DNA of 64,000 nucleotides from an uncultured Chloroflexia bacterium (GTDB taxonomy: Bacteria; Chloroflexota; Chloroflexia; QHBQ01; JADMIH01): assembly GCA_963811305.1 (NCBI GenBank), contig CAWEQU010000005.1:11314-75313 (forward strand). The letters run 5' to 3'. Below the pieces are notes generated by a model. It ran no database searches. It saw nothing but the letters and a program-made list of their open reading frames with translations, and was not told the DNA's origin. Below are positions 3,518 to 64,000 of this stretch, piece by piece (the first letter of the stretch is position 1; each line of letters begins with the position of its first letter). The position numbers and the translations under genes were made by a program.

Positions 3518-3541
3518 CTCTCACACCCCCAACTACACACT

Positions 3542-3606
3542 CTCACGTTTCACGTTTCACTCTATCGTCTATCGTCTATCGTCTATCGTCCATCGTCCAT
3601 CGTCCG
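3542..3606. repeat. Tandem heptamer array (CACGTTT x2, CTATCGT x4, CCATCGT x2)
   Basis: Read directly: tcacgtttcacgtttcactctatcgtctatcgtctatcgtctatcgtccatcgtccatcgtcc, filling the gap between the two permease genes. Confidence 0.85.
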
Positions 3607-3609
3607 CCC

Positions 3610-4857
3610 TCACCCTCCCCAGCCCCGTGTAAAGACTGCCTGCGCAGACCCCCCGCGGCGGACGCGGTAGACCCAGCGTATGATCTGGTCGGCGGCTATG
3701 AAGACGATTACCAGTGCCTGGATGATGTTGATGAGGTCTTTTGAAATGCCGCTCTCGGTCTGCATGAGGCCCGCACCCTGGCGTAGCGCGCCCCAGAATA
3801 TGGCCGCAGGAATAATGGCTATAGGGTTGCTTCGCGCCAGCAGCGCGACTGCTATGCTGTCGAACCCGTACCCCGCTGAGAAGGACGCCTGGAGCTTATG
3901 CTGTAAACCCAGCACCTGCCCCACCCCGGCCAGACCCGCAAGCGCGCCGCTTATAGCCATCGCCAGCACAAAGTTGCGCGTGATGCTCATGCCCGCGTAC
4001 TGTGCGGCGTCAGGGTTGGAGCCAACGGTACGTATCTCGAAGCCGATGGTGGTCTTGTTGAGCAGCCACCATATGGCGAACGCCATCACGATTGCCAAGA
4101 TAAAACCTGCATGCAGGCGATAGTCCGCGCCGAAGAGGAAGGGTAGCTCGGCGGATGGTTGGATCGCGGGCGTTTGTGGAGCGCTCGCCGCCTTGTCCAG
4201 AAACGGCCCCTTGATCAGGTAGTCGGTGAGGCTAATGGCTATGTAGTTAAGCATGATGGTGGTGATAACCTCATGCGCACCCGTCTTCGCACGCAGATAG
4301 CCTGGGATCGCACCCCATATCGCGCCACCCATCGCGCCTATTACCACCGCCAGAGGGAGGTGGATGAATGCAGGCAGGCCGGTGATGCTGTACCCCGCGA
4401 CCGCAGCCGCCATCGCGCCCATCGCAAGCTGCCCTTCCGCGCCGATGTTGAAGAGGCCGCACTTGAAACCGAGCGCGACCGCCAGACCCGCGAACATGAA
4501 GGGTGTCGCTTCTACCAGGGTATTCGCCAGGGCCTCAGGAGAGCCGAGCGCGCCGACAAAGAGGCCCCTGTACGCCTTGATGACGTCGGTCCCCGTCAGC
4601 AGGATAATGAGCGCGCCTATTACCAGGGCAGTGAAGATAGCGAGCAGAGGCACCAGCACTTCACCCAGCAAGGCCCCCCAGTTTAGGCCCTTGCGAGGCT
4701 CACCCGGCGGCTCAGCATGAGTGCGGCCAGGCTCTACCAGGGGCGCGGGTGGGTAATCGGCACTACCCGTAGGGCTGGTGCCACCCTCGGAAGGGACAGC
4801 CTGCACGGGCGCGTCGCCAGATACCTCATTAGCTGATTTGTCGTCTCCGTCCGGCAT
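3610..4857 (-). CDS. ABC transporter permease (BMP/nucleoside-type, YufP/NupP-like) with a ~60-aa Pro/Gly-rich N-terminal extension
   Basis: 415-aa hydrophobic ORF with the motif IRTVGSNPDAAQYAGMSI. Its ATG overlaps the ATPase stop (TGATG at 4857), suggesting translational coupling. Confidence 0.85.
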   Translation of the reverse strand: MPDGDDKSANEVSGDAPVQAVPSEGGTSPTGSADYPPAPLVEPGRTHAEPPGEPRKGLNWGALLGEVLVPLLAIFTALVIGALIILLTGTDVIKAYRGLFVGALGSPEALANTLVEATPFMFAGLAVALGFKCGLFNIGAEGQLAMGAMAAAVAGYSITGLPAFIHLPLAVVIGAMGGAIWGAIPGYLRAKTGAHEVITTIMLNYIAISLTDYLIKGPFLDKAASAPQTPAIQPSAELPFLFGADYRLHAGFILAIVMAFAIWWLLNKTTIGFEIRTVGSNPDAAQYAGMSITRNFVLAMAISGALAGLAGVGQVLGLQHKLQASFSAGYGFDSIAVALLARSNPIAIIPAAIFWGALRQGAGLMQTESGISKDLINIIQALVIVFIAADQIIRWVYRVRRGGSAQAVFTRGWGG

Positions 4858-6426: not shown

Positions 6427-6509
6427 GAATTACGAATTACGAATTACGAGTTACGAATTGGTAAGCATAACCCGTAATTCGTAATTCGTAATTCGTAATT
6501 CGTAATTAC
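6427..6509. repeat. Heptamer hairpin: GAATTAC-type units, loop, then GTAATTC x5
   Basis: gaattacgaattacgaattacgagttacgaatt / ggtaagcataacc / cgtaattcgtaattcgtaattcgtaattcgtaattac. It occupies almost the whole ATPase-SBP intergenic gap. Confidence 0.85.
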
Positions 6510-8069
6510 TTACGGAACGGTTACGCCCGTCTTGATCGAGCCGTCGGCCAGGCCCTTGAGGATTGCGTCCAATTGGGTCTTGACCTCGGCGGGGATTGAA
6601 TCCTCGGCCTTGTGGAACGGGGTGAGGCCTACACCATTGCTCGCCGCATCGTAGAGCTGCGTGCCGCCCACGAAGGAACCGTCCTGCGCGGACTTGATAG
6701 CGGAGAAGACCGCGTTGTCCACGCGCTTCCCGGCGCTGGAGAGTATCTTCTCGGAGCCGAGAGCCGAGCCATTCTGGAACGTGGTTCCGTACTCGTCCTG
6801 GTCCACGCCGATAACCCACACGCCTGCCTGAGCCGCAGCCTGGATTGCGCCGGAGCCGGTCTGGCCGCCCGCGCCGAAGATGACGTCCGCACCCTCAGCG
6901 ATGAAGCTCTTGGCGGCTTCAGCGCCACGCGCGCGGTCTACGAAGGAGTCAATGTATACACTCCTCACCTGGATGTCAGGCTTGATGGACTTGGCGCCAT
7001 TCGTATAGCCCAGCACGAATTTCTTCACGGCAGGTACGCCCTCGATGCCACCGACCACGCCAATGATATTGGTCTGACTCATGGCAGCCGCGAGCGCTCC
7101 TGCCAGGTAGCCTGCCTGGTCCTCGGCGAAGACGAGTCCACGAACATTGGAGATTACAGGGTCATACGCGAAGTCGACGATGGCATACTTGATGTTAGGG
7201 TGCTTCGCGGCAGCGCCCTTTAGCGCGTCGCCCATCAGGAAGCCCACAGCTATGATCATGTCATAGTTCTGTGAGGCGAACTGCTCAAGGTTCTTGTCGT
7301 AGTCAGCGGATGCCGTAGTCTCGATGTAGTTGATCTCGACGCCAAGTTCCGTGCCTGCGCGCTTGAGACCCTCATAAGCGAACTGGTTGAACGTGCCGTC
7401 GTTGACCTTGCCCACGTCGGTAACGAGGCCGACTTTTAGTTTCGCGCCCGCGCCTGGGGTCGTCATAACACCAGGGGTCTCATTGCCCGTCATGCTGCTG
7501 TCGGTGATGTCGCCGCAGGAGACGTAGACAGAAGCTTCAGCCGCGCTCTTGTGTACGTTGATGGCGTAAGCCTGGCCTGCCGCCATCGTGAAGTCGGAGG
7601 TGGATATTGTGGTCTCGCTCTTGCCGTTGACCACACTGGTCAGGGCCACAGCAGGCGCGGGATCGAGATTGGCGCAGGTGCCTTTGTGGATGTGCGCCGG
7701 TTGAGGCTCGGTTGTGCCACCGCTTATGTCAATAGAGACGACCCAACCTGTGCTGCTCACCTTGATGGTGGCCGTGCCGTTCTGACCGGAGGCGTTCTGC
7801 TCCTTCATCGTTACGGTCATGTCCGTCATGGTTGGACCTGTGGTAGCCATTGCCGTTGCCATTGCTGTAGGCTCGGCTGTTGCTGCCATTGCCGTAGGCG
7901 CTGCTGTAGCCTCCATAGCGGCTGTGGGAGCCGATGTTGCTGGGACCGCCGTGCTTGGCACCGGGGTGTTATCCGCAGTGCCACCGCAGGCCGCCAGAAT
8001 AGGGAGTATCATTAGCAAAGCCGCCAACGATACCCCCGCCCGCCCGAAGATTTTCCTCTTGATAGACAT
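6510..8069 (-). CDS. BMP-family (PnrA/Med/TmpC-like) ABC substrate-binding lipoprotein with an extra N-terminal CHRD-like domain
   Basis: Lipobox ILAAC|GG and an Ala/Thr/Pro linker. A ~105-aa insert domain (nt 7506-7820) shows the AHIHKGTC..AINVHKS..SCGDI pattern. The BMP core follows (KLKVGLVTDVGKVNDGTFNQFAYEGLKRA, GVVGGIEGVPAVKKFVLGY). Confidence 0.85.
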   Translation of the reverse strand: MSIKRKIFGRAGVSLAALLMILPILAACGGTADNTPVPSTAVPATSAPTAAMEATAAPTAMAATAEPTAMATAMATTGPTMTDMTVTMKEQNASGQNGTATIKVSSTGWVVSIDISGGTTEPQPAHIHKGTCANLDPAPAVALTSVVNGKSETTISTSDFTMAAGQAYAINVHKSAAEASVYVSCGDITDSSMTGNETPGVMTTPGAGAKLKVGLVTDVGKVNDGTFNQFAYEGLKRAGTELGVEINYIETTASADYDKNLEQFASQNYDMIIAVGFLMGDALKGAAAKHPNIKYAIVDFAYDPVISNVRGLVFAEDQAGYLAGALAAAMSQTNIIGVVGGIEGVPAVKKFVLGYTNGAKSIKPDIQVRSVYIDSFVDRARGAEAAKSFIAEGADVIFGAGGQTGSGAIQAAAQAGVWVIGVDQDEYGTTFQNGSALGSEKILSSAGKRVDNAVFSAIKSAQDGSFVGGTQLYDAASNGVGLTPFHKAEDSIPAEVKTQLDAILKGLADGSIKTGVTVP

Positions 8070-8189: not shown

Positions 8190-8367
8190 GGACGATGGAC
8201 GATGGACGATAGATAAACACAGAGACACAAAGACGCAGAGGACGCACAGAGATTATTAACGGTAAAGGGGTGTTAAGTAACCCAAAATAATCTCTATGTT
8301 ACCTTTGTGCTCTCTGTGTCTCTGTGTTTATCTATCGTCCATCGTCCGTCGTCTGTCGTCTGTCGTC
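8190..8367. repeat. 178-nt composite imperfect palindrome built from GGACGAT/AGACGCA/CACAGAG-type heptamers and their complements
   Basis: Left arm ggacgatggacgatggacgatagataaacacagagacacaaagacgcagaggacgcacagagattatt. Right arm aataatctctatgttacctttgtgctctctgtgtctctgtgtttatctatcgtccatcgtccgtcgtctgtcgtctgtcgtc. It ends 3 nt from the stop of the 8371 gene. Confidence 0.8.
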
Positions 8368-8370
8368 TTC

Positions 8371-9468
8371 TCAGCGTGGCTCGAGGACGATGTTGAAGGT
8401 GCCTTCGGTCTGGGTACATTGGGGGAATACTTCGGTCTCAACGGTGCGGTAACCTGGCGCGGAGACGTTGACGTGAATGTGCGGGTGGATATTCTCATAC
8501 GGTCCGGGATAGTGACTTTCAAAGCTGTAAGACCCGGAAGGGCCAGTGATTATCATAGCTTCATACTCCTCCCTGTATACACCGTCAGGCCCGGCCATAC
8601 GGAACTTCAGCTTCGCGCCTTGTATTGGAGAGCAGTCGCGGCTTGACTTCACCACACCGTTGAGGATATGCCCTTTACCTACGGATGAGCGCAGGGGGGC
8701 GTCGGGAGGCTCAGGCCCGGTGGTGGGACCGGTCTGCGTGGGAACGCAGCCGGACGGTACTGCTGTCGGGGTAGCAAGGCCAGTAACCACCTCCGGGTGT
8801 ATGGCGCTGATGCGGGCGGTCCCCAGCTGCGCGATACGAATGTTCTCGTAAGTGCGCTTCTCAGGCACATAAAATGCCTCCTGGTAATACTCCAACACGG
8901 CGCGCTCAAAATATTGCACTCTATATGTCTGTTCGTTCAAGGGAGAGACTTCGGTGAACTCCCCGGAGATTGGATAGCCGAACTGCGCCAGCCCGCCAGT
9001 ATTGAGCCAGAAATCGAGGAACTCACAGCCCAGGTGCTTGCCCGTTTCGGGGAAAAGATGCGCGCCTTGTTGGGTGTTAGCCATCTCACCAGGCCCGCCG
9101 TTCGGGTACTTCTCTTTGTACTGGAAGACGCCCAGCAGAGATAGAAGCACGTCATAAGGTGGGTCGTTTTCGGGGTGTAGCTCGAACACGGCCTTCTCGA
9201 AGTACTGGACCGTATAAAGCTTGCCGTCTGTGTCAGACTTTTCTTGCATATCGTTCGAGATTGGGAGACCTTGCACCAAAGCACCCCCGTGCCTGGCGAA
9301 GTATTGCAGGAACTTACCCCTGACTACCTTACCCGTCTCAGGGAAGGTAAGAGATGTATCCTGGCCCTGGGCATGTAAAGGAGAGGCAGACTGGAACGAA
9401 AAGATTAAGATTGCCGAAAGGCTAGAAGCGAACAGGCGCAGCGCCATTTTCGATAGTGGTGAATTCAT
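8371..9468 (-). CDS. Secreted protein: the same two-repeat N-terminal module as gene 1..1299, fused to an intradiol-dioxygenase-like beta-sandwich domain
   Basis: Signal-like N-terminus. Repeats FPETGKVVRGKFLQYF..VQYFEKAVFELHPEN..VLLSLLG and FPETGKHLGCEFLDFW..VQYFERAVLEYY. C-terminal domain with NIHPHIHVNVSAPGY. Confidence 0.6.
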   Translation of the reverse strand: MNSPLSKMALRLFASSLSAILIFSFQSASPLHAQGQDTSLTFPETGKVVRGKFLQYFARHGGALVQGLPISNDMQEKSDTDGKLYTVQYFEKAVFELHPENDPPYDVLLSLLGVFQYKEKYPNGGPGEMANTQQGAHLFPETGKHLGCEFLDFWLNTGGLAQFGYPISGEFTEVSPLNEQTYRVQYFERAVLEYYQEAFYVPEKRTYENIRIAQLGTARISAIHPEVVTGLATPTAVPSGCVPTQTGPTTGPEPPDAPLRSSVGKGHILNGVVKSSRDCSPIQGAKLKFRMAGPDGVYREEYEAMIITGPSGSYSFESHYPGPYENIHPHIHVNVSAPGYRTVETEVFPQCTQTEGTFNIVLEPR

Positions 9469-18550: not shown

Positions 18551-18557
18551 GAGGATT

Positions 18558-18583
18558 GAAACGTGATGCGTGATGCGTGATAT
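18558..18583. repeat. Short heptamer array (AACGTGA, TGCGTGA x2)
   Basis: gaaacgtgatgcgtgatgcgtgatat immediately upstream of cca. Confidence 0.6.
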
Positions 18584-39834: not shown

Positions 39835-40077
39835 GTCCCTAGTATAGCAGATATAGCAGAGGCCGTGCGCGGCGGTCCAGGGTCCAGGCCGACCGTTCTC
39901 GCGAGTTGGACGCGGTTAGCCGTCTTCAGCACGAACAGGATCCCCATCAGCGCCGCCCGGTCCCGACACCCGGGGCCGTCCGCCCTTGGGCTCCGGCGGC
40001 TCCGGCGGGAGCAGCGGCGCGATCCGCGCCCACAACGCATCAGGCAACAGTTCCTTCGCCATGGCACCCTCCTCCAT
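39835..40077 (-). pseudogene. Remnant of an IS5/IS4-group transposase N-terminus (DUF4096-like), frameshifted and truncated
   Basis: Hand translation gives MEEGAMAKELLPDALWARIAPLLPPEPPEPKGGRPRV in one frame, continuing as DRAALMGILFVLKTA.. in the ORF 39831..40067 frame. This resembles the LSD..W..I.PLLP...GRPR..DR..L.GIL.VL+TG pattern. No DDE domain follows. Confidence 0.5.
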
Positions 40078-40140
40078 GGCTCCTATTCTGCTTCCTCGGC
40101 TGCTTACGCGACGGTTTTGTTAGGCGTACTAAGTGCTGCA

Positions 40141-40149
40141 TGATATAAT
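40141..40149 (+). promoter_or_regulatory. Candidate extended -10 promoter element (TGATATAAT) for the 40174 gene
   Basis: tgatataat lies 25 nt upstream of the ATG, and an AGGAGGA RBS sits at 40161-40167. No good -35 was seen. Confidence 0.4.
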
Positions 40150-40173
40150 GCCACAAAAATAGGAGGAGAGACG

Positions 40174-40899
40174 ATGGGCAGCATCGGCAAAGATGTCAAA
40201 ATAACGTGGTACGGCCACGCTACCTTTCTAATCGAGACGCCGGGCGGCAAGCGCATTCTCATAGACCCCTGGGTGCAGAACAACCCTGCGTGCCCGGAGC
40301 GCCTCAAGAAGGTCGAGAAGCTTGACGCTATGCTCATAACGCACGGCCACTTCGACCACATCATGGACGCTATTCAAGTCGCAAAGGACGCATCACCAGA
40401 TACGGTCGTGGGCATATTCGAGATTTACACCTGGCTCGAAAAGAAGGGCGTGAAGGGTGGCATGGGGATGAACAAAGGGGGAACCGCGGACGTGGCGGGC
40501 ATACGCGTAACGATGCTCCACGCGGACCATTCCTGCGGCATCCAGGATGACGATGGCTCTATTATTTACGGCGGCGAGGCAGTAGGGTATTTGATGGAGA
40601 TGGAGAACGGCTTCAAAGTCTACCACTCAGGCGACACCGCCATCTTTGGCGACATGGGCCTCTACGGGGAGTTCTTCAAGCCGGACCTCGCTATATTACC
40701 CATAGGCGACCACTTCACGATGGACCCACGCCAGGCTGCCTATGCCTGCGAGATGTTGGGCGTAAAATGGGTCATCCCCAGCCACCACAGCACCTTCCCC
40801 CTCCTCACCGGCACCCCCGCCGGGCTGCGCGAAGAGCTAAAGAAGCGTGGCTGCGAGTGCGAAGTGCTAGAGCTGAAGCCGGGAGAAACGGCTGAGTAG
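40174..40899 (+). CDS. Metallo-beta-lactamase-fold hydrolase, UPF0173-like
   Basis: VKITWYGHATFLIETPGGKRILIDPW and LITHGHFDH (HxHxDH). Confidence 0.8.
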   Translation: MGSIGKDVKITWYGHATFLIETPGGKRILIDPWVQNNPACPERLKKVEKLDAMLITHGHFDHIMDAIQVAKDASPDTVVGIFEIYTWLEKKGVKGGMGMNKGGTADVAGIRVTMLHADHSCGIQDDDGSIIYGGEAVGYLMEMENGFKVYHSGDTAIFGDMGLYGEFFKPDLAILPIGDHFTMDPRQAAYACEMLGVKWVIPSHHSTFPLLTGTPAGLREELKKRGCECEVLELKPGETAE

Positions 40900-40978
40900 T
40901 TACGAGTTACGAGTTACGAGTTACGAGTTGATAGGGAAAACTCGTAACTCGTAACTCGTAACTCGTAACTCGTAACTA
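40897..40978. repeat. Heptamer hairpin (GTTACGA x4 / loop / TCGTAAC x5) spanning exactly stop codon to stop codon of convergent genes
   Basis: TAGttacgagttacgagttacgagttacgagtt gatagggaaa actcgtaactcgtaactcgtaactcgtaactcgtaaCTA. TAG 40897-99 ends the MBL gene and CTA 40976-78 is the stop of the DUF305 gene. Confidence 0.9.
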
Positions 40979-41614
40979 CTTCCACTCCTTCAGCCAGCCA
41001 TTCATCCTATCGATCTCTATCTGTTGAGTGGTGATAATATCGGTTGCCAGGTCGTGCAGGGGGGTGTGCTTGAGGTTGGGCATGGCGGCCTTCGACATGT
41101 CGATGGCGCTCTGGTGGTGAGGGATCATCGCGGTGATGAAGTCGCGGTCGAAGCTGGACGAAGCCTTCAGCTTCTCCAGGTCAACGTCCATACCCCCCAT
41201 CTGCATCCCGCCCATCCCTCCCGACTTATTAGGGTCGGGGGTGGCGGAGCCTGCAAGCTCCGTACGCCACATACCCATGCGCTTGATCTCATCCGCCTGG
41301 GCACGAATGATGTCATTTGCCAGGCCCTTTAGCTCCCCATGAGTGGCTTTCTCCTGGGCTATCTTCGCCATGTCCACAGCAAGCTGGTGGTGAGGCACCA
41401 TCATGTCAATATAGGTCACGTCATCGGGCACGTTATAGGCGACGGGCGTGGCCATACCTCCCATATGGTCCATGTCCGCTGTTGGCGCACCCGTAGGCTG
41501 GACGGCGACGGAGGTCGGGTGGGACACGGGATGGTCGGTGCTACCACCAAAATCGCACGCAGCCAGCGTGAAGGCAACCAGGACTAATGAGATAATACGC
41601 AACTTCTTCAACAA
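40976..41614 (-). CDS. DUF305 (ferritin-like, copper-resistance-associated) lipoprotein
   Basis: Lipobox FTLAAC. Two HH-containing repeats: MMVPHHQLAVDMAKIA and AMIPHHQSAIDMSKAA. Confidence 0.8.
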   Translation of the reverse strand: MLKKLRIISLVLVAFTLAACDFGGSTDHPVSHPTSVAVQPTGAPTADMDHMGGMATPVAYNVPDDVTYIDMMVPHHQLAVDMAKIAQEKATHGELKGLANDIIRAQADEIKRMGMWRTELAGSATPDPNKSGGMGGMQMGGMDVDLEKLKASSSFDRDFITAMIPHHQSAIDMSKAAMPNLKHTPLHDLATDIITTQQIEIDRMNGWLKEWK

Positions 41615-41641
41615 TACTTACTCCAATCTGAAAACTAGGTG

Positions 41642-41684
41642 TTCTCTGGTGAAAGATGTGCTAAGCACATCTTTCACCAGAGAA
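41642..41684 (-). terminator. 21-bp-stem hairpin after copA (terminator candidate), of the TTCTCTG(G)TGAAAG family
   Basis: ttctctggtgaaagatgtgct a agcacatctttcaccagagaa, 13 nt downstream of the copA stop, followed on the minus strand by ..agttttc. Confidence 0.55.
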
Positions 41685-41696
41685 CTAAAAAGAAAG

Positions 41697-44157: not shown

Positions 44158-44229
44158 TTTCTTGCCTCAGTTCTAAATCAAGAGTGATAGGGAGATGCAA
44201 GGCTCGCATACCGAAGCACATCTCGCCAT

Positions 44230-44308
44230 GTCATTCCGAACGAAGTGAGGAATCTCCATGCTCACCAGGTGGATAGATTTCTAAATTCCTCACTCCGTTC
44301 GGAATGAC
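44230..44308. repeat. Palindromic element, family P copy 4, between the DUF4396 gene and copA
   Basis: gtcattccgaacgaagtgaggaat..ctccatgctcaccaggtggatagatttctaa..attcctcactccgttcggaatgac. One arm mismatch. The right flank is shared with copy 1. Confidence 0.75.
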
Positions 44309-45376: not shown

Positions 45377-46279
45377 ATGGCACTGCTGAAATCGAGGCGG
45401 CTTGGGCGGATGCTCCAGGTAGTGGTCGCGCTCGTGATACTTGCTTTCTTCGGCGTCGCGCTCTACGGCTTGCTGCCGCAGATACTCTCCTACAGTTGGG
45501 AGTTCGACCTTGTGTACCTTGCCCTCGCACTCCTGCTCATAGTGGTCAGAGGGCCTCTCGGCTCGCACGGGTGGTGGGCCATCATGCGCCAGTTAGGTTA
45601 CACCCTCCCCTGGTGGCGCAGCCTGCGCATTGTCTACTACTCCACGCTCGCCGGCTACCTACCTGGGGGGATGTGGCACGCGGTCAGCCGCGTATACCTG
45701 GCTGAGAAAGAGAGGGTACCACGCGTCATCACAGCCTTGAGCGTGGTGATAGAGTCGGCACTGGTGGCTATGGGCGCGGCACTCATTGCGCCGATGGCAG
45801 CGCTGGCCTGGGGCGATTTTCCGGCGTGGCTCGTGGTGGGCACTCTCGCGGTGCTCGTAGGCTTCATGCTACAGCCAAACGTCCTCTTCCGTATGCTCGA
45901 TTGGGTGCTCATCAGGTTCAAGCGCGAGCCTGTCAACGTGAAGATGACCCCTCTCGATATGCTGCGCCTCCTGTGGCCTTACGCTCTCAACTGGCTCCTA
46001 TTCGGCATCATGTCCTTCGCGCTGGTAGCGGCAATCTACCCGCGCATACCCATCTGGCAAGCGCCCGCCATAGCCGGGGTCTTCACGTCGGCCTGGCTCA
46101 TCGGCTACCTGGCGGTGTTCGTGCCGCAGGGCCTGGTAGTGCGCGAGGCCGTTATAGTTGGTTTCCTGACCGGCGCGCTTGGTCTGCCCGTGCCGGTAGC
46201 AGCGGCGTCAGCACTTCTCTCCCGCCTCTGGTCAATGCTCGGCGTAGCTATATGGGGCGCGGTCTCCACACGACTCTGA
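45377..46279 (+). CDS. UPF0104 / lysyl-PG-synthase-TM-domain-like (flippase-like) membrane protein
   Basis: The start at ATG 45377 gives 300 aa with ~8 TM helices; the longer ORF-track start reads through the hairpin repeat. The family call is tentative. Confidence 0.55.
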   Translation: MALLKSRRLGRMLQVVVALVILAFFGVALYGLLPQILSYSWEFDLVYLALALLLIVVRGPLGSHGWWAIMRQLGYTLPWWRSLRIVYYSTLAGYLPGGMWHAVSRVYLAEKERVPRVITALSVVIESALVAMGAALIAPMAALAWGDFPAWLVVGTLAVLVGFMLQPNVLFRMLDWVLIRFKREPVNVKMTPLDMLRLLWPYALNWLLFGIMSFALVAAIYPRIPIWQAPAIAGVFTSAWLIGYLAVFVPQGLVVREAVIVGFLTGALGLPVPVAAASALLSRLWSMLGVAIWGAVSTRL

Positions 46280-46362
46280 CCAATTACGAATTACGAATTA
46301 CGGGGTGAACTTCACAATTCGTAATTCGTAATTCGTAATTCGTAATTCGTAATTCGTAATTA
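46280..46362. repeat. Heptamer hairpin (GAATTAC x3 / loop / GTAATTC x7) filling the stop-to-ATG gap
   Basis: TGA(46277-79) ccaattacgaattacgaattacgg ggtgaacttcac aattcgtaattcgtaattcgtaattcgtaattcgtaattcgtaattac cATG(46365). Confidence 0.9.
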
Positions 46363-46364
46363 CC

Positions 46365-47543
46365 ATGCGTATCCTCCACATCATATACGACGACATAGAG
46401 AACCTCTGGGTTGGTGGAGGGGGAGCTACGCGCACGCTGGAGATATACAGCCGCATTGCGCGAATGGGACACAGGGTGGTGGTCGTTTGCGGCAACTACC
46501 CGGGCGCTCCACGCAGGCATACCCGCATGGGCATCACCTACCGTCACGTGGGCGCGGCAAGCCCCTACGCATGGAGCAGGCTCACCTTTATGCCAGGTGC
46601 TGCACGCTTGATAAAGCGTGGGGGCTATGATATAGTCATCGAGGATGTTTCGCCTTTCTCACCGGTCGGAGCGCCCCTATGGTGCGGGCACGCCCCTGCC
46701 GTAGCCAGCGTGCAAAACCTCTCAGGGAGCCACGCTATCGCCAAGTATGGCTTGCTGGGTTGGGGGCCACGCCTCATAGAAAGACCGCTGCTATCGCTCT
46801 TCAGAAACTTCGTCGCGGTATCGCCCGGCATAGCTGATCAACTCAAGGAACGCTTCGGCTCGAAGAATGTCAGGGTAATCCCGAACAGCGTAGGCCAGGG
46901 CTTTCTGGAAGCTGCCGCAACACAAGAGGAACCTGTTGCCGAGGGAAGATACATACTCTCTCTTGGCAGGATTGACGTGTATCAAAAGGGGCTGGATAGA
47001 CTTATCGCAGCATTTGACCAGGTCGCTGACCAGTTGCCCGATACCAGGCTTATCATCGCCGGGGATGGTACATCCGGCCAGGCAGACGCACTGCGCTCGC
47101 TTGTCGCACGTGCGCGACACGCTGCAAGGATCAAACTGGCAGGCAAGGTGGACCAGGCAGAAGCTGCGACACTGATGAAGGGGGCCGCTCTGCTGGCAAT
47201 GCCCTCCCGGTACGAGGCATGGCCTCTAGCGGCGATTGAGGCAGGAGCCGTGGGCACACCAGCCGTAGGGTCGGACATAATCGGAGTGAGAGACGCTGCC
47301 CCGCAATTCCCAAAGGCGCATGGTGAACTCGTTCCGGAGGGTGACATCGAAGCCCTTACGAGGACCATGTTGAAAGTGCTCACCAACCAGAACCTGCGGC
47401 ATGATATGGGCGAGCAAGGCAAAGCCTGGGCATCCCGCTTCACCTGGGATGCCCTCGCCGAGGAGCAAAGCGCGTTCTATGAAGAATTACTTCGCGCGAA
47501 ACGTGAAAATTCGACCATCAAAACACCAAAAGCACAATCATAG
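46365..47543 (+). CDS. Glycosyltransferase family 4 (GT-B)
   Basis: MRILHIIYD..GGGATRTLEIY N-terminal domain and the C-terminal EAWPLAAIEAGAVGTPAVGSD motif. Confidence 0.85.
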   Translation: MRILHIIYDDIENLWVGGGGATRTLEIYSRIARMGHRVVVVCGNYPGAPRRHTRMGITYRHVGAASPYAWSRLTFMPGAARLIKRGGYDIVIEDVSPFSPVGAPLWCGHAPAVASVQNLSGSHAIAKYGLLGWGPRLIERPLLSLFRNFVAVSPGIADQLKERFGSKNVRVIPNSVGQGFLEAAATQEEPVAEGRYILSLGRIDVYQKGLDRLIAAFDQVADQLPDTRLIIAGDGTSGQADALRSLVARARHAARIKLAGKVDQAEAATLMKGAALLAMPSRYEAWPLAAIEAGAVGTPAVGSDIIGVRDAAPQFPKAHGELVPEGDIEALTRTMLKVLTNQNLRHDMGEQGKAWASRFTWDALAEEQSAFYEELLRAKRENSTIKTPKAQS

Positions 47544-47615
47544 CGTCACACATATTTACCAAACCGCAGAGGCGCAGAGACGCTGAGGTTCGATAGAGAG
47601 TAAAATTAAGGACCA

Positions 47616-47667
47616 ACGCATCACGTTTCATCGTCCATCGTCCATCGTCCATCGTCCGGCATCACGC
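47616..47667. repeat. Heptamer array (CACGTTT, CATCGTC x4, CACGCAT) abutting the ATG at 47668
   Basis: cgcatcacgtttcatcgtccatcgtccatcgtccatcgtccggcatcacgcATG. Confidence 0.8.
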
Positions 47668-48807
47668 ATGATACTATTCATCACCCGCAAACACCCTCCA
47701 TCGGTCGGGGGGATGCAGAAGTTGAGCCAGAGCCTCACCAAGGAGGTGGGCAGGCTCACCCCCACAAGCACCATCTACTGGGGAGGCTCGACCCTGTTCG
47801 TCCCCTTCTTCATCGTCTACGCTTTTCTGAAGGCTATATTCACCGTGCCGCGCTCCAACCACGTCAAGCTAATCCACCTGTCGGACGCTCTCCTGACCCC
47901 GCTGGGGCTAGCGCTGAGAACGCTTCTGCGCGTGCCTGTGGTCGTCACGGTACACGGCCTGGACGTGACCTACTCCAATCGCCTCTACCAGTGGCTAATC
48001 CCGCGCTGTCTGAAGCGCATGGACAAGATAATCTGCGTGAGCAGCTACACGCGCCACCAGTGCATCAAGCGGGGCGTGCCTGCCAACCTGTGCGTGGTCA
48101 TACCAAACGGGGTGAACATGCTGGAGTTTGGGGACCAGTATACCCAGCAGGGGATGCGCAACATCCAGCACCTGGCCGGGCGGGCGCTTCGAGGGCGTAA
48201 GGTGCTGCTCACGGTAGGTCGCCTTATCGAGCGCAAAGGAGTAGTACACTTCCTCACCGAGGTCATGCCTCGTATGCTGGCGCAACGGCAGGACTTCTGC
48301 TACATGATTGTGGGGGAAGGTCCGCAACGCGAGCTTATAGAGACGCGTATAACATCCCTGCATCTTGAAGACCACGTAGTCCTGCTCGGGCGCGTAGACG
48401 ACGACACCTTGCGGGCGGCATACTACCTGACCGACCTCTTTATCATGCCTAACATACCCGTGCAAAACGATATAGAGGGCTTCGGCCTAGTCGCGCTTGA
48501 GGCGGCGGCGGCAGGACGCTACGTGGTGGCCTCTCGCCTCGACGGCATACCGGAGGCGATAGTCCCCGGCCAGAATGGAATGCTACTCGACCCCCTCGAT
48601 AGCGAGGCCTTCGCCACCACCATACTCGACTTGCTGGCAGATGATGAAAAGAGGCAGATTCTGGGCCATCAGGCACGCGAGTTCGTGAGGGACCGCTACT
48701 CGTGGGATATAGTCGCCCGCCGCTACCAGCAGGTGTTCATGCAGGTCACGCAATCGCAGCGCCCGGCGATGGACGACGGGCGACGGACGACAGACGACGG
48801 ACGATGA
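47668..48807 (+). CDS. Glycosyltransferase family 4 (GT-B)
   Basis: ITRKHPPSVGGMQK and EGFGLVALEAAAAGRYVVASRLDGIPE. The last 12 codons ([12 protein letters not shown]) are encoded by heptamer repeats. Confidence 0.85.
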   Translation: MILFITRKHPPSVGGMQKLSQSLTKEVGRLTPTSTIYWGGSTLFVPFFIVYAFLKAIFTVPRSNHVKLIHLSDALLTPLGLALRTLLRVPVVVTVHGLDVTYSNRLYQWLIPRCLKRMDKIICVSSYTRHQCIKRGVPANLCVVIPNGVNMLEFGDQYTQQGMRNIQHLAGRALRGRKVLLTVGRLIERKGVVHFLTEVMPRMLAQRQDFCYMIVGEGPQRELIETRITSLHLEDHVVLLGRVDDDTLRAAYYLTDLFIMPNIPVQNDIEGFGLVALEAAAAGRYVVASRLDGIPEAIVPGQNGMLLDPLDSEAFATTILDLLADDEKRQILGHQAREFVRDRYSWDIVARRYQQVFMQVTQSQRPAMDDGRRTTDDGR

Positions 48808-51176: not shown

Positions 51177-51998
51177 GTGACCAACGCAGAGCCACACGGG
51201 ACAGACAGCCCGCATATCGAAAACAACACTCTCGCTCAGGGAGAAACAAAAGATAAGAAGTCCGGGGACGACCAGGAATTGCGCCTCTCGGTCGTAATCC
51301 CCATGTACAACGAAACGAGCCGTATAAGCGATACTATACCCCCCCTCCTGGCATATTTCTCCGGCCAGCCTTACAAGTATGAATTCGTGATAGTGGACGA
51401 CGGCTCCACCGACGGCACTGCGGAGTTAGCACGCAAGCTATTTGCTCCGGCAGAGAACATGCGAGTGCTAGAGAAACACCCCAACAAAGGTAAGGGGAGC
51501 GCGATAAGGGCGGGTATGCTGGCCGCGAAGGGCAAGGTGGTGCTATTCTGCGACGCAGACCTCGCCACGCCGCCGGGGGAGCTTGACAAGTTCTGGCGTT
51601 GGCTCGATGCAGGGTATGATGTGGTCATCGGCTCGCGCAAGATGGAAGGGGCTAACATCACCCGCCACCAGCCGAAGTGGCGCGAGAGCCTGGGCAAAGT
51701 TTTCACCTGGCTCACCAACAGGCTCGCCACGCGTGGCATCTCCGACGTGACGTGCGGCTTCAAATGCTTCAGCCGCGACGCCGCCCGTGAGTTGTTCTCC
51801 CGCGCCAGACTGAACGACTGGAGCTTCGACGCGGAAGTGCTCTTTATCGCCCAGCACCGAGGCTACCGGATAAAAGAAGTACCCGTCACTTGGCACGATA
51901 AACCGGGCACGAAGGTGCGCCTCCTCCAGGATGCGACACGCTCCCTGGCAGGCTTGATGAAGATACGCCTCAACGGGCTGAGGGGGAAGTACAAGTAG
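51177..51998 (+). CDS. Glycosyltransferase family 2 (dolichyl/polyprenyl-phosphate glycosyltransferase-like)
   Basis: LSVVIPMYNE and FVIVDDGSTDGT..DADL motifs. The start could be GTG 51177 or further upstream at 51117. Confidence 0.8.
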   Translation: MTNAEPHGTDSPHIENNTLAQGETKDKKSGDDQELRLSVVIPMYNETSRISDTIPPLLAYFSGQPYKYEFVIVDDGSTDGTAELARKLFAPAENMRVLEKHPNKGKGSAIRAGMLAAKGKVVLFCDADLATPPGELDKFWRWLDAGYDVVIGSRKMEGANITRHQPKWRESLGKVFTWLTNRLATRGISDVTCGFKCFSRDAARELFSRARLNDWSFDAEVLFIAQHRGYRIKEVPVTWHDKPGTKVRLLQDATRSLAGLMKIRLNGLRGKYK

Positions 51999-52183
51999 AC
52001 GTGATGCGTGATGAAACGTGAAACGTGAAACGTGAGAGCAGTGCTTATTCGAAACTCCAATACTCAACAAATCTCTGCGTCTCTGCGCCTCTGCGGTAAA
52101 CCTTAAAAAACTTGGCGTTCTTGGTCCCCTTGGCATCTTGGCGTTTAATAATCACGCATCACGCATCACGTTTCACGTTTCAG
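51999..52183. repeat. Composite heptamer element filling the stop-to-ATG gap (ACGTGAA/ATGCGTG arm, CTCTGCG x3, CTTGGCG units, CACGCAT/CACGTTT arm)
   Basis: acgtgatgcgtgatgaaacgtgaaacgtgaaacgtgag..ctctgcgtctctgcgcctctgcgg..cttggcgttcttggtccccttggcatcttggcg..atcacgcatcacgcatcacgtttcacgtttcag. The outer arms are complementary. Confidence 0.8.
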
Positions 52184-52185
52184 AA

Positions 52186-54270
52186 ATGGCCCTTAGCTCC
52201 CCCCAAACCTACTTACATCTTCTCATAGCGCTTTTGATGCTCGCGCTGCCTGGCATGGCGGTCATAATGGCGCTACGGCGCTGGCTGGACAGACAGCCAA
52301 TGGGCTTCGTGAGTGCCCTCCTTCCGGGCTTTGGGCTGAGTATAGCTCTGTGGCCTCTCCTCTTGCTGTATATCTCCCTGGTCGGACTGAGCTTCACGCC
52401 CTGGCTGGTGTGGGCGGTGCTGGTTCTGTCAGGCGGGTATGTCCTGTACGAAGCTGTACGTCAAAAGGCAGAAGGCAGCGGGCAGAAGGCAGAAACTGAC
52501 CTTACACAAAACTCTCACGCCTCACGTTTCACGTCTCACGTTTCACGTTTCACCCTCCTCTCGTTACTCGCCCTCACCCTCCTCTACCAGGCATTTAGAC
52601 TGGGCGACGTCGCCGGGCTATCTGTACCCATGTTTGGCGACTCCATGCACCATACCATGATCACTACCCTGATCGTGGACGGCGGCAAAGTCCCAACAGG
52701 CTATCTCCCCTACGTACCCGTAGATACGTTCACTTACCACTTCGGCTTCCACACCATGGCGGCGGTCTTCGCCATGCTGACAGGCTCCACGCCTGAGTAT
52801 GCAGTGCTGTTGCTTGGGCAGGTGCTTATCACCCTCTCAGTGCCCCTTGCTTACCTGCTCAACCGCGTGCTATTTGGATCAAGGCTGGCGGGGCTGGGGT
52901 CTGCGTTCCTTACAGCGGTGGTCTCCCTCATGCCCGCGTTTTACGTCAACTGGGGCAGATACACGCAGCTATCCGGGCATCTGCTCTTGATAGTTGCGCT
53001 CGTTGCGCTTGTGCGTGTGATGCGGCCCGGACCATTAACGAGGCGTACCGACTTCGTCTTGCTGATACTGTCGGTGGGTGGACTGGTGGTGGTGCATTAC
53101 CGCATCCTTTTATTCTTCGGCCTCTTCGCTATCGCGCTCGGCACATGGCAATTAGCCGCACAGTGGGGCAGGTGGCGCGACCTGCTCTCCGCCTGGGGAC
53201 GCTCCATCGCCGCGATGGCATTGGGTCTCCTACTGGCGCTGCCCTGGATAATCAACCTCATCACGAACTACATACGCGGTCTGGTAGAGCGGCTGGGCAC
53301 TGTCACCGCCGACTATCTATCGTTGTACAACGACCCAAACACGCTCCTCATACATCTCGGTAGAGTGCTGCCATTGGTCGCGCTCCTGGGGCTTGTCGCG
53401 GGCGTGGTAAACCTGTGGCAATCCCGCGCCAAAGGCCCCGCGCGGCGAGACAATGGCAAGATGGAGAGCGTGAGTGCTCCGCCCCTTCCACCATACGCTG
53501 CCTGCCTGGTCCTCACGTTGTGGGCCGAGCTACTGGTTGCCAGCCTGTGGGTCGTGCCGGGGGCGATTGGCAGCTACACGGTGGCAATCACGCTTTATAT
53601 ACCCTTGAGCGCGCTGGGTGGTTACGGCATCAGATCGCTCTGCACCCTGGTGCAGCGATTCTTGAGGGTGCCGAGGTGGGTATTTACTCCACTGCTCGTG
53701 TTGGTCGCGCCTATATTCGCATTTCTACTGGGCACGGCCCACGTCGCGGCACCTGCGACTTTCAACTACCTCCAGGGAGCGGACGAGCGAGCGTTCCAGT
53801 GGGTGAAATCGAACGTCCCCGGTAGTGCTAAGTTCCTCATTTCCTCGGAGTTCTCATACTCCGGGAGGGCCGTCACCGCCAGTGATGCGGGTATGTGGCT
53901 ACCCCTACTTACAGGTAGAAATGTAAGCGTGCCCGCCCTTAACTCATGGATGGAGCGCCCGATTGAGACCGATTTCTTCACTCGCACACGCCAGCTCGCG
54001 GCTTACACCCAGCCTGTCACGCCTCTATCAGTAGGAGGCACGACACAGGCCGAGCTTGTCAGGCGCAAGATCATCCAGGAGGAGCACTCCCTCAGCGACC
54101 CGGCGGCGCTCGATCTCATGCGCGGGCTAGGCGTTACACATGTGTACGTAGGGGCGCAAGCTGGCGCATCCAAACCTCGCCTGGACGTACTCGCTTTGCG
54201 TAGGGACACAGACCACTACAAGCTACTCTACTTCGAGGAAGGGGTGTACATATTCGAGGTGGTATACTGA
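52186..54270 (+). CDS. Large polytopic membrane protein with an extracytoplasmic C-terminal domain (possible GT-C-type glycosyltransferase), containing an in-frame heptamer-repeat insert
   Basis: Start MALSSPQTYLHLL. More than 12 hydrophobic helices. The loop QKAEGSGQKAETDLTQNSHASRFTSHVSRFT is encoded by GGCAGAA and CACGTTT repeats (52462-52554). Function is not established. Confidence 0.6.
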   Translation: MALSSPQTYLHLLIALLMLALPGMAVIMALRRWLDRQPMGFVSALLPGFGLSIALWPLLLLYISLVGLSFTPWLVWAVLVLSGGYVLYEAVRQKAEGSGQKAETDLTQNSHASRFTSHVSRFTLLSLLALTLLYQAFRLGDVAGLSVPMFGDSMHHTMITTLIVDGGKVPTGYLPYVPVDTFTYHFGFHTMAAVFAMLTGSTPEYAVLLLGQVLITLSVPLAYLLNRVLFGSRLAGLGSAFLTAVVSLMPAFYVNWGRYTQLSGHLLLIVALVALVRVMRPGPLTRRTDFVLLILSVGGLVVVHYRILLFFGLFAIALGTWQLAAQWGRWRDLLSAWGRSIAAMALGLLLALPWIINLITNYIRGLVERLGTVTADYLSLYNDPNTLLIHLGRVLPLVALLGLVAGVVNLWQSRAKGPARRDNGKMESVSAPPLPPYAACLVLTLWAELLVASLWVVPGAIGSYTVAITLYIPLSALGGYGIRSLCTLVQRFLRVPRWVFTPLLVLVAPIFAFLLGTAHVAAPATFNYLQGADERAFQWVKSNVPGSAKFLISSEFSYSGRAVTASDAGMWLPLLTGRNVSVPALNSWMERPIETDFFTRTRQLAAYTQPVTPLSVGGTTQAELVRRKIIQEEHSLSDPAALDLMRGLGVTHVYVGAQAGASKPRLDVLALRRDTDHYKLLYFEEGVYIFEVVY

Positions 54271-63202: not shown

Positions 63203-63217
63203 CGTTGACCCCCTTTT

Positions 63218-63292
63218 GGAATTTTGAGTTTTGAATTCTAAATTTTGAATTATGGGGATCAATTCAAAATTTAGAATTCATAATTTAGAATT
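63218..63292. repeat. AT-rich heptamer hairpin (GAATTTT/GAGTTTT/GAATTCT units and their complements)
   Basis: ggaattttgagttttgaattctaaattttgaatt atggggatc aattcaaaatttagaattcataatttagaatt. The right arm overlaps the TAA of the M42 peptidase gene. Confidence 0.8.
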
Positions 63293-64000
63293 AGGGCTTC
63301 AGCCCTGCCACCGTCTCTGCATCTAGCCTCTTGATGACGGCTACCAGCAGGCGGGCGGCGTTGTTGAAGTCGTCCAGGTTGACCATCGAAGCGGCGGAGT
63401 GGATATAGCGAGCGGGGATGCCTATATTGATTGTGGGCACGCCGTCGCTCGCTAACTGGAACCTGCCCCCGTCCGTGCCGCCCGCAGCCACGCTATCGTA
63501 CTGGAAGGGGATGCCCTCCTGCTCGGCGATTTCTACGAAGAGGTTGCGGAGCTTGAGATTGGGGATGAGAGAGCCGTCATAAATCAGGAGCACCGGACCC
63601 TTGCCAAGCTTACCCTGCGCCTCGTGAGCCTTGACGCCGGGAGTGTCCCCAGCGATGCCAACGTCGATGGAGATTGCAACATCGGGGTCTACCATGTGTC
63701 CCAGTGTTGCCGCGCCTCGCAGACCTACCTCTTCCTGGACGGTCGCTCCCGCGTAAATAGTATTGGGGTGGTCATCACCCGCACTCTTGAGGGCGGCCAC
63801 CGCCAGCGCGCACCCGAAGCGGTTATCCCACGCTTTGGCGAGCAGCATCTTGCTATTCGCCATGACGGTGAAGGGGCAGATTGGGATTATCGGGTCGCCA
63901 GGACGCACTCCCGCGTCAATTGCCTCCTGCTTGCTCATCACACCTATATCTACAAACATATTCTTCTTTTCAACCATCTTCTTGCGCTCGTCGGCGGTAA
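63291..64000 (-). CDS. M42-family glutamyl aminopeptidase (FrvX/endoglucanase-like), 5' end beyond the window
   Basis: FVDIGVMSKQEA..GVRPGD, AKAWDNRFGCA, VQEEVGLRGA, AAGGTDGG, RYIHSAASM. The frame stays open upstream of the track's Met to nt 64000 (..TADERKKMVEKK). Confidence 0.8.
   Translation of the reverse strand, partial: TADERKKMVEKKNMFVDIGVMSKQEAIDAGVRPGDPIIPICPFTVMANSKMLLAKAWDNRFGCALAVAALKSAGDDHPNTIYAGATVQEEVGLRGAATLGHMVDPDVAISIDVGIAGDTPGVKAHEAQGKLGKGPVLLIYDGSLIPNLKLRNLFVEIAEQEGIPFQYDSVAAGGTDGGRFQLASDGVPTINIGIPARYIHSAASMVNLDDFNNAARLLVAVIKRLDAETVAGLKP

What the first reader, a model, noticed from the sequence alone, without database searches (positions are those of the whole stretch)
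40897..40978. Heptamer hairpins sit flush against stop and start codons
At 40897-40978 the hairpin begins with the TAG of the plus-strand gene and ends with the CTA (TAG) of the convergent minus-strand gene, leaving zero spare intergenic nucleotides. The same flush placement recurs elsewhere: 46280-46362 (TGA..hairpin..cATG), 47616-47667 (array ends at the ATG), 51999-52183 (TAG..element..aaATG), 63218-63292 (the arm covers a TAA), and 8367/8371. If these were random insertions, ragged spacing would be expected. Exact abutment suggests either insertion targeted at translation boundaries or growth by unit addition until selection at the coding boundary stops it. Within operons (46280, 51999) such a structure between cistrons would occlude the downstream RBS region, which implies regulation of translational coupling.
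Basis: seen in the sequence. Interest (0 to 1): 0.6.

Follow-up and report, generated by a model that had tools for sequence, protein, structure and literature searches.

The report
Heptamer hairpins anchored at stop codons
In this uncultured Chloroflexia genome, tandem 7-base repeats and the hairpins built from them begin at or within about 5 bases of stop codons far more often than chance, but they stop short of start codons; this layout is already published for similar repeats in Xanthomonas and Nostoc, so it is a clear new example and not a new kind of element.

Summary
All six cited sites are as described. Genome-wide (about 1,400 period-7 arrays) only the stop-codon half of the claim holds. 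44% of stop-side array edges lie on the stop codon or within 5 nt after it. This holds even where hundreds of spare bases exist (36/150 observed against 3.7 expected). Flush starts are not enriched (63 observed, about 115 expected). Arrays usually end 6-30 nt before the start, just upstream of a Shine-Dalgarno core.

The arrays are polar. The G-rich arm comes first in 120 of 121 hairpins and in 503 of 510 intergenic regions, whatever the gene orientation. About a quarter of junctions carry arrays, whether the spare spacer is 5 or 500 nt.

Congeners carry different 7-base words at the same stop codons. Array-free congeners have only 2-25 nt between the same genes, so part of the flushness is inherited tight spacing.

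The hairpins are not canonical terminators, not REP/RAYT elements, and show no G-U bias. A role in translational coupling is possible for about 52 junctions but untested.

Rehm et al. 2015 (PMC4692102) published the same stop proximity and polarity. This scan has also noted the layout in several other phyla. Verdict: real, non-random, a new member of a known kind, with cause unknown.

The parts
40895..40980 (.). Focal hairpin. The 5' arm is (GTTACGA)n at 40895-40929, the loop is 40930-40938 and the 3' arm is (TCGTAAC)n at 40939-40980. The stem contains the stop TAG 40897-40899 of the MBL-fold gene 40174-40899 (+) and the stop (CTA) 40976-40978 of the DUF305 gene 40976-41614 (-).
46277..46367 (+). 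Intercistronic hairpin: TGA(46277-46279), cc, (AATTACG)x3, loop, (AATTCGT)x6.6, acc, ATG(46365). It lies between an LPG-synthase-TM-like gene and a GT4 glycosyltransferase.
   Evidence: The empty site in congeners is 2-25 nt.
47565..47670 (+). C-rich (R-type) arrays upstream of the second GT4 gene: the 8-mer array CGCAGAGG at 47565-47588, (CATCGTC)x4 at 47629-47657, and the partial unit CATCACGC running up to the ATG at 47668.
   Evidence: CGTCATCACGC-ATG is conserved in G004, and the N-terminus MI(L/F)FI is conserved.
51996..52188 (+). Composite element. TAG(51996-51998) is followed directly by (GTGATGC)/(GTGAAAC) units, then inner 8-mer arrays (TCTCTGCG at 52072-52095, CTTGGCG-type), then (ATCACGC)/(TCACGTT) units ending at 52182, then gaa and ATG 52186.
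63215..63293 (-). Hairpin of (TTTTGAA)/(AATTCTA)-type units. Its outer arm overlaps by 2 nt the TAA (63291-63293, - strand) of gene 63291-64352. It lies 64 nt from the start of gene 62608-63150.
8331..8373 (-). An array that reads GACGAYR in gene sense, ending 2 nt from the TGA (8371-8373, - strand) of gene 8371-9468.
6427..6512 (-). (AATTACG)n hairpin between the stop (6510-6512) of the PnrA-like substrate-binding protein gene and the ABC ATPase gene (start 6413). The 13 nt left before the start hold the SD GGGGAG.
3541..3612 (-). Arrays (GTGAAAC / GACGATA / GACGATG in gene sense) lying 1 nt from the stop of permease gene 3610-4857 and 23 nt from the start of gene 2246-3517.
18557..18581 (-). 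A single R-type array 6 nt upstream of the start (18550) of gene 17168-18550. It is conserved in G004 with a different copy number.
41641..41685 (-). For contrast, an ordinary 20-bp stem-loop with a T-rich tail, 12 nt after the stop of gene 41697-43322. It is conserved in G004 and is not a heptamer array.

Best explanation
These are polar heptanucleotide repeat arrays of the STRR / long-SSR class. Each is tied to a gene junction and is not scattered through non-coding DNA. On either strand the G-rich array comes first, with its 5' end at the neighbouring gene, and the C-rich array comes second. Where both are present they fold into a long hairpin.

Next to a stop codon nothing else is required, so the first unit starts on the stop or within about 5 nt of it. 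The stop codon is often a one-base variant of that unit. Next to a start codon the array ends where the ribosome-binding region begins.

The zero-spacer look has two sources. First, the arrays arise in or enter junctions that were already tight. Second, they are anchored to the gene end whatever space lies beyond it.

Words and copy numbers turn over quickly while the site stays occupied. The element probably acts as a 3' stem-loop of the upstream cistron, which a terminating ribosome must partly melt. That functional step is inferred, not shown. The cause of the polarity and anchoring is unknown.
For: Shown:
- Period 7 dominates the genome: 1184 exact runs against 34 for period 8, and 1424 soft arrays.
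- Stop anchoring is 6- to 26-fold over uniform placement. In tandem regions the stop is the closer boundary in 383 cases and the start in 209, p = 8e-13.
- Periodicity ends within one degenerate unit of the stop.
- On the start side arrays leave a gap. 57% of genes with an array 13-30 nt upstream have an SD core, against 36% genome-wide and 12% at random positions.
- Arm order is fixed in 120 of 121 inverted pairs. Arrays after stops are L-type 144:9 and arrays before starts are R-type 127:29. L precedes R in 503 of 510 regions in all four gene orientations.
- Occupancy is 15-31% per junction whatever the spare length, so density per spare nt falls about 150-fold.
- Orthologous sites: 8 of 12 congeners have an array 0-3 nt after the MBL-gene stop, with five different words. 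Most congeners have a heptamer hairpin 0-5 nt after the SBP stop. Sister genera have ordinary GC hairpins 9-19 nt after it.
- Own genome and G004 have identical flanks at the SBP junction but different words, with mirrored unit variants.
- Empty junctions in congeners measure 2-25 nt.

Published: the same polarity and stop proximity are reported in Xanthomonas and Nostoc (PMC4692102).
Against:
- Stem mismatches show no excess of G-U over A-C on the sense strand (55 against 43, p = 0.27). This gives no support for selection on RNA pairing.
- Only about half of the stop-flush arrays have a complementary partner within 300 nt, so a hairpin role cannot cover them all.
- Only 7 of 126 hairpins have a T-rich tail.
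- No mechanism is known that would anchor the 5' end of the G-rich strand at a gene boundary.
- Gene starts come from my own crude caller and are only partly checked against orthologues.
- Replication in a second congener failed for lack of arrays.
Confidence: 0.5

Rival explanations
1. Neutral or selfish repeat DNA with no function. Arrays arise anywhere, and purifying selection leaves them only where nothing is needed. Deletion bias then removes the few spare bases, so they end at functional boundaries: the stop codon on one side and the RBS or promoter on the other.
For: - Words and copy number turn over quickly at orthologous sites.
- Stem mismatches are mostly transitions, with no G-U bias.
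- Arrays survive in frame inside MutS2, LeuRS and other genes.
- There are no terminator tails.
- Both-flush junctions occur exactly as often as independent placement predicts.
Against: - It does not explain why edges lie within 5 nt of the stop when 160 to more than 400 spare nt are available.
- It does not explain why occupancy per junction is independent of spacer length.
- It does not explain the strict G-rich-first polarity.
- Ordinary hairpins in this genome and in sister genera sit 9-19 nt from stops, not flush.
Confidence: 0.2
2. The hairpin between cistrons pairs the bases after the upstream stop with those before the downstream start. Translation of the downstream gene then depends on a ribosome terminating upstream and melting the foot of the stem. 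This would be regulated translational coupling.
For: - 52 tandem junctions are filled from stop (within 5 nt) to start (within 12 nt). Many are perfect stems of -35 to -59 kcal/mol.
- None of the 63 genes with an array within 5 nt of the start has an SD core, against 12% at random positions.
- The starts at 46365 and 47668 are confirmed by conserved N-termini.
- Junction 46279/46365 is a 2-7 nt coupled junction in six congeners.
Against: - Flush starts are under-represented genome-wide (63 against about 115 expected).
- The both-flush count equals the independent expectation (52 against 55.3).
- Most arrays leave the SD outside the stem.
- The same elements sit between convergent genes, where no coupling exists (20 of 65 flush on both sides).
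- At 46277-46367 the unequal arms (3 against 6.6 units) leave the units nearest the ATG outside the main stem in the predicted fold.
Confidence: 0.1
3. Site-specific insertion. The hairpins are small mobile elements (REP- or MITE-like) whose machinery targets stop codons or a TA-rich target next to them.
For: - The same words occur at dozens of loci.
- Junctions as short as 2-7 nt have been filled more than once in the genus.
- (TTACGAR)n arrays are often preceded by TAA or TAG.
- A Y1 transposase gene exists in the genome.
Against: - The only full Y1 transposase is flanked by its own inverted repeat, which occurs nowhere else, and not by heptamer arrays.
- Comparison of filled and empty sites shows no target-site duplication and no fixed element ends.
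- Arm lengths differ within one element (3 against 6.6 units).
- Offsets from the stop range from -3 to +8 and are not one value.
- Stop-codon usage at flush sites equals the genome average.
- Polarity also holds next to start codons.
Confidence: 0.08
4. Chance or lack of room. Gene spacing is so tight that any 80-nt element must touch both neighbours.
For: Array-free congeners have 2-25 nt at junction 46279/46365. 82 of 775 array-bearing regions have less than 10 spare nt.
Against: Anchoring to the stop persists with 80 to more than 400 spare nt, at 6- to 26-fold over uniform placement. Stop and start sides behave differently in the same regions (p = 8e-13).
Confidence: 0.05

Closest known systems
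G-rich heptameric repeats GGGAATC (Xanthomonas) and GGGGA(C/T)T (Nostoc PCC 7120), Rehm et al. 2015, PLoS One (PMC4692102)
   Same: - Tandem 7-nt units that are mostly intergenic.
- The G-rich strand lies on the sense strand within 50 bp of the stop codon or overlapping it, and on the antisense strand upstream of starts.
- Frequent inverted pairs able to form stem-loops.
- The cause and function were left open.
   Different: - Here there is not one G-tract word but about 90 word families, most unable to form G-quadruplexes.
- The proximity is resolved to -3..+8 nt and not a 0-50 bp bin.
- Arm order is fixed for every family.
- Occupancy per junction and word turnover at orthologous sites are measured here.
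Cyanobacterial STRR (short tandemly repeated repetitive heptamers; Mazel et al. 1990, cited from my own knowledge)
   Same: Families of tandem heptamers dispersed in intergenic DNA. Some form hairpins between cistrons. My recollection is that the hupS-hupL spacer is an example.
   Different: Different phylum (Chloroflexia) and different words.
E. coli REP sequences within 15 nt of a stop codon (Liang, Rudd and Deutscher 2015, PMC4427526, as summarised in PMC12306157)
   Same: Extragenic palindromes, many of which lie within 15 nt after a stop (260 of 496 in that study). There they stall terminating ribosomes and lower expression. Stem-loops after substrate-binding-protein genes of ABC operons are a classical site of REP action.
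   Different: REPs are 20-40 bp imperfect palindromes of one conserved family with a GTAG or CGTC tag, mobilised by RAYT transposases. Here the arms are tandem heptamers of many families, and the one Y1 transposase is unrelated to them.
TAACTGA direct repeats of marine Beggiatoaceae, some Cyanobacteria and Bacteroidetes (PMC4679880)
   Same: Intergenic heptamer direct repeats with a fixed orientation relative to genes. They change in 7-nt steps between strains. Some overlap upstream stop codons, and downstream genes often lack an SD.
   Different: Those repeats sit mostly a few nt upstream of start codons, use one word, and rarely form inverted pairs. Here the anchor is the stop codon and flush starts are depleted.

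Membership tests
Polar heptameric long SSRs (Rehm-type / STRR-type) | Tandem repeats with a 7-nt unit in large excess over other periods | tested here: met
   1184 exact period-7 runs against 150 (period 6) and 34 (period 8). TRF finds 1843 period-7 rows.
Polar heptameric long SSRs (Rehm-type / STRR-type) | G-rich strand on the sense strand close to or overlapping the stop, and on the antisense strand upstream of starts | tested here: met
   144:9 after stops and 127:29 before starts. L precedes R in 503 of 510 regions. 44% of stop-side edges lie within 5 nt of the stop.
Polar heptameric long SSRs (Rehm-type / STRR-type) | Inverted pairs that can form stem-loops | tested here: met
   121 strict inverted pairs. 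134 junction hairpins with a median 27-bp stem. Folds of -35 to -65 kcal/mol.
Polar heptameric long SSRs (Rehm-type / STRR-type) | G-tracts able to form G-quadruplexes (specific to the Xanthomonas and Nostoc words) | tested here: not met
   The top words (ACGATAG, ACGCATC, AAAATCC, ACGATGG, AATTACG and others) have no GGG tracts.
REP / REPIN elements mobilised by RAYT | One conserved imperfect palindrome family with a GTAG or CGTC tag at one end | tested here: not met
   About 90 unit families with variable ends. The GTAG...CTAC of the focal hairpin is the two stop codons.
REP / REPIN elements mobilised by RAYT | A Y1 (RAYT) transposase gene flanked by copies of the repeat | tested here: not met
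   The Y1_Tnp hit at G000:C8:381825-382166 is flanked by a different inverted repeat that occurs only there.
Intrinsic (factor-independent) terminators | A stem-loop followed directly by a T-rich tract | tested here: not met
   7 of 126 hairpins have 6 or more T in the 10 nt after the stem. No heptamer hairpin is listed by the terminator scan of 40000-53000.
MITE-like mobile elements | Defined terminal inverted repeats and a target-site duplication at filled versus empty sites | tested here: not met
   Filled and empty junctions in 16 congeners show no duplication and no fixed ends. Arm copy numbers differ.
Translational-coupling hairpins | Downstream initiation depends on upstream termination melting a structure that hides the RBS | not testable with these tools
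   Only the geometry can be seen: 52 junctions are filled from stop to start. No expression data were available.

The most novel reading that the evidence does not exclude
The arrays are made or extended by a directional DNA-level process that works from the 5' end of the G-rich strand toward the nearest gene. Intergenic DNA would then be continually rewritten into polar heptamer arrays up to the first base that selection protects: the stop codon, or the RBS. This would explain the fixed arm order, the anchoring and the word turnover together. It would also mean that the stop-to-start hairpins let tightly coupled cistrons stay coupled across 70-100 inserted bases.
Probability: 0.12. Interest if true: 0.7.

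Novelty: new member of a known kind. Interest (0 to 1): 0.35.

Why it matters
Polar heptamer arrays now appear in many phyla with the same unexplained geometry: G-rich strand first, starting at the stop codon. This genome is an unusually rich case, with about 1,400 arrays, about 90 words and more than 20 sequenced congeners. In it the rule can be measured at single-base resolution, and filled and empty orthologous junctions can be compared.

That makes two open questions testable. The first is what anchors and orients these repeats. The second is whether a very stable hairpin starting on a stop codon alters termination, mRNA stability or coupling.

For annotation there are three practical lessons. 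In such genomes ORF ends may be supplied by repeat units. Longest-ORF starts that run into arrays are usually wrong. Array-filled spacers are not evidence of separate operons.

Tried and rejected
- G-U against A-C mismatch asymmetry, as a test of RNA-level selection: 55 against 43, not significant and heterogeneous between strands.
- tRNA genes, as a translation-free test of 3'-end anchoring: 0 of 49 tRNAs have an array within 5 nt, and two have G-first hairpins 11-16 nt downstream. This is too few to decide.
- Replication in congener G012 (400 kb): only 44 arrays with a different vocabulary, 5 of them near stops. Inconclusive.
- REP/RAYT link: rejected.
- Terminator tails: absent.
- Stop-codon choice at flush sites: no different from the genome, so there is no sign that elements carry their own stop type.
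- Target-site duplications at filled versus empty junctions: none seen.
- Unit-supplied stops as the whole explanation: rejected. Half of the overlapping cases have the stop in the first 3 nt of the array and not spread over three units, and many stop-flush arms are stop-free in the reading direction (for example TTACGAG).
- The conditional uniform-placement simulation is uninformative for regions with almost no spare DNA. I therefore stratified by spare length and measured occupancy per junction.

Full report
**Check of the observation**

The 82-nt element at 40897-40978 is a near-perfect palindrome. It consists of (GTTACGA)x4.6, a 10-nt loop and (TCGTAAC)x5.6. The plus-strand MBL-fold gene (40174-40899) ends with TAG at 40897-40899. 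The minus-strand DUF305 gene (40976-41614) ends with its TAG at 40976-40978. Both stop codons, and one further base on each side, lie inside the stem. The stem folds at -65 kcal/mol as RNA, with z = -12.8 against shuffles.

The other cited sites are also as described:
- TGA-cc-[hairpin]-acc-ATG at 46277-46367.
- C-rich arrays running up to the ATG at 47668.
- TAG-[composite element]-gaa-ATG at 51996-52188.
- An arm overlapping the TAA at 63291-63293.
- An array ending 2 nt from the stop at 8371.

Across the whole window, 8 of 13 stop-side distances are within 3 nt. Only 3 of 11 start-side distances are within 7 nt.

**Genome-wide test**

The window lies in a 4.6-Mb, 21-contig assembly with 57% G+C. 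Its nearest named relatives are Roseiflexaceae and uncultured Chloroflexia MAGs. Period 7 dominates: there are 1184 exact runs of 17 nt or more, against 34 for period 8. A tolerant detector finds 1424 arrays, with about one false hit per 1.4 Mb of shuffled sequence.

No gene finder was available, so I called genes with a codon log-odds score. This gave 4004 genes and 80% coding. Stop positions of high-scoring ORFs are exact. Starts are not.

Of 727 array edges facing a stop codon, 219 overlap the stop or the gene end, and 103 lie 0-5 nt after it. This is not only lack of room. The table shows how many stop-side edges lie within 5 nt of the stop, compared with uniform placement.

| Spare nt in the region | Edges within 5 nt of the stop | Expected if uniform |
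|---|---|---|
| 80-160 | 38 of 115 | 6.3 |
| 160-400 | 36 of 150 | 3.7 |
| more than 400 | 29 of 131 | 1.1 |

The offset is a band from about -3 to +8 nt, not a single value. Periodicity fades within one degenerate unit upstream of the array, so the stop codon is often a one-base variant of the terminal unit.

Start codons behave differently:
- Edges within 5 nt of a start number 63 of 823, against about 115 expected.
- In-frame ATGs after an array edge form a broad hump at +6 to +26 nt, with no peak at 0-3 nt.
- 57% of genes with an array 13-30 nt upstream have an SD core in the gap, against 36% genome-wide and 12% at random positions.
- In tandem regions the stop is the nearer boundary 383 times and the start 209 times (p = 8e-13).

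**Polarity**

In 121 strict inverted pairs the 5' arm has the same orientation in every word family (120:1). That orientation is the one with G>C, or A>T when G equals C. Arrays within 8 nt after a stop are G-rich in gene sense 144:9. Arrays 3-30 nt before a start are C-rich 127:29. This includes arrays with no partner.

Read on the plus strand, G-rich arrays precede C-rich arrays in 503 of 510 intergenic regions. This holds for tandem, convergent and divergent neighbours alike. The rule is therefore strand-symmetric: the 5' end of the G-rich strand abuts the neighbouring gene.

**One site per junction**

The fraction of junctions carrying arrays is 15-31% whether the spare spacer is 0-5 nt or 400-1000 nt. 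Arrays per spare nucleotide therefore fall about 150-fold. Random insertion per base would predict the opposite.

**Orthologous junctions**

The MBL gene keeps its C-terminus in 11 congeners. Eight of the 12 genomes, counting this one, carry an array 0-3 nt after its stop, with five different words: TTACGAG, TACCGAG, GTTTTGA, TGAAACG and GAGTACC. In one species the ORF now ends on the first TGA of the array.

After the PnrA-like substrate-binding-protein gene, most congeners have a heptamer hairpin 0-5 nt from the stop, again with different words. This genome and its closest relative G004 have identical flanks at this junction, including the SD. Their words differ (AATTACG against AATTTTG/AATTCTA), and the unit variants are mirrored between arms. 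Sister genera have ordinary GC-rich stem-loops 9-19 nt after the stop.

At junction 46279/46365, six congeners have only 2-7 nt between stop and ATG, and five have 18-25 nt. Four lineages carry arrays there. The N-termini MRILH(I/V)IYDD and MI(L/F)FI are conserved, which confirms the starts at 46365 and 47668. Here the flushness is simply the old tight spacing with about 80 nt placed inside it.

At the focal site, G004 has 5 kb more DNA, holding a 1537-codon ORF, between the two genes. It has only two TCGTAAC-type units next to the DUF305 stop. Its MBL gene ends GAA TAA, where this genome has GAG TAG. Both changes lengthen the palindrome without changing the protein.

**What the elements are not**

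- They are not canonical terminators. Only 7 of 126 have a T-rich tail, and none is listed by the terminator scan.
- They are not REP/RAYT elements. The single Y1 transposase is flanked by its own inverted repeat, which occurs nowhere else.
- They are not MITE-like. There are no target duplications, and arm lengths are unequal.
- Stop-codon usage at flush sites equals the genome average.
- Stem mismatches show no G-U excess on the sense strand (55 against 43), so selection on RNA pairing is not demonstrated.
- tRNA 3' ends are too few to inform.
- A second congener had too few arrays for replication.

**How it most likely works**

Shown: the arrays are polar, anchored to gene ends and limited to one site per junction. 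They turn over in word and copy number while the site persists. They leave the RBS free.

Inferred: the folded element serves as the 3' stem-loop of the upstream cistron. A ribosome reaching a flush stop must melt the foot of the stem, as in E. coli REPs within 15 nt of a stop (PMC12306157 citing Liang et al. 2015). Two findings speak for this at some sites: ordinary hairpins sit at the same SBP junction in sister genera, and occupancy at orthologous sites is high.

Unknown: what orients and anchors the arrays.

That number is what independent placement gives, and the same elements lie between convergent genes.

**Comparison with what is known**

Rehm et al. 2015 (PMC4692102) reported the same layout for GGGAATC repeats in Xanthomonas and GGGGAYT repeats in Nostoc. 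The G-rich strand lies on the sense strand within 50 bp of the stop or overlapping it, and on the antisense strand upstream of ORFs, with many inverted pairs. TAACTGA repeats (PMC4679880) share the heptamer unit, the fixed orientation and the 7-nt indels, but they sit before starts.

Earlier notes of this scan describe the same layout in other phyla and the same repeat class elsewhere in this genome. I checked the polarity and the stop anchoring independently here. The finding is therefore a well-documented new member of a known, still unexplained class.

Noticed in passing
window 12686-12765, 17076-17100, 26115-26194, 44230-44308: A separate dispersed 25-nt repeat, GTCATTCCGAACGCAGTGAGGAATC, is present seven times in the window. 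Most copies form inverted pairs about 30 nt apart. Related copies (GTCATCCTGAGCGTAGCGAAGGATC) lie downstream of the MBL gene in several congeners.
   Followed up: partly
window 48771-48923: Three heptamer arrays straddle the junction 48807/48812. They lie in the last codons of the GT4 gene and in about 35 N-terminal codons of ORF 48812-50086. The conserved N-terminal motif of that ORF (LLGWYGSDNIGDEAVL) starts only after the arrays, so the arrays are either translated as an N-terminal extension or hide an unusual start.
   Followed up: no
G000:C8:381825-382166 (locus L057): A Y1 (IS200/RAYT-like) transposase ORF is bracketed by a roughly 50-nt inverted repeat (core GTAGCCCAGGGCGTAAGCCCTG). The repeat occurs only at these two positions in the assembly, so it has not expanded into a REP family.
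   Followed up: partly
window 40899-40976 versus G004:C9:886-5939 (locus L054): The closest congener has 5 kb with a 1537-codon ORF between the MBL and DUF305 genes. In this genome the two genes are joined directly by the hairpin, so the hairpin sits at an indel or rearrangement breakpoint. The gene downstream of the MBL gene differs in most congeners.
   Followed up: partly
G000:C3:35564-37819, C2:14577-17036, C3:200077-201030: Heptamer arrays lie in frame inside MutS2, leucyl-tRNA synthetase and a CO-dehydrogenase-type FAD subunit. They encode peptides such as IQNPKSK and RRTDDG. About 170 arrays lie deep inside confident ORFs, in both orientations (93:79).
   Followed up: partly
genome-wide; for example window 52183-52188 and examples: Genes with a C-rich array within 12 nt of the ATG often have an A-rich spacer of the form (t)caaaag(cc) before the ATG and no SD core. 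This hints at SD-independent initiation at these genes.
   Followed up: no
window 2023-2194, 29074-29189, 47565-47588, 52072-52130: 8-nt arrays (CGCCAAGA / TCTTGGCG and CGCAGAGG / CTCTGCG) form the inner layers of composite palindromes whose outer arms are heptamer arrays.
   Followed up: no
G012:C5:1-260000 and G012:C2:1-140000 (loci L139-L158): This congener has about 110 exact heptamer arrays per Mb, against about 255 per Mb here. Its vocabulary is almost entirely different (ACTCGCC, ACGAGTG, ACCGACT).
   Followed up: partly
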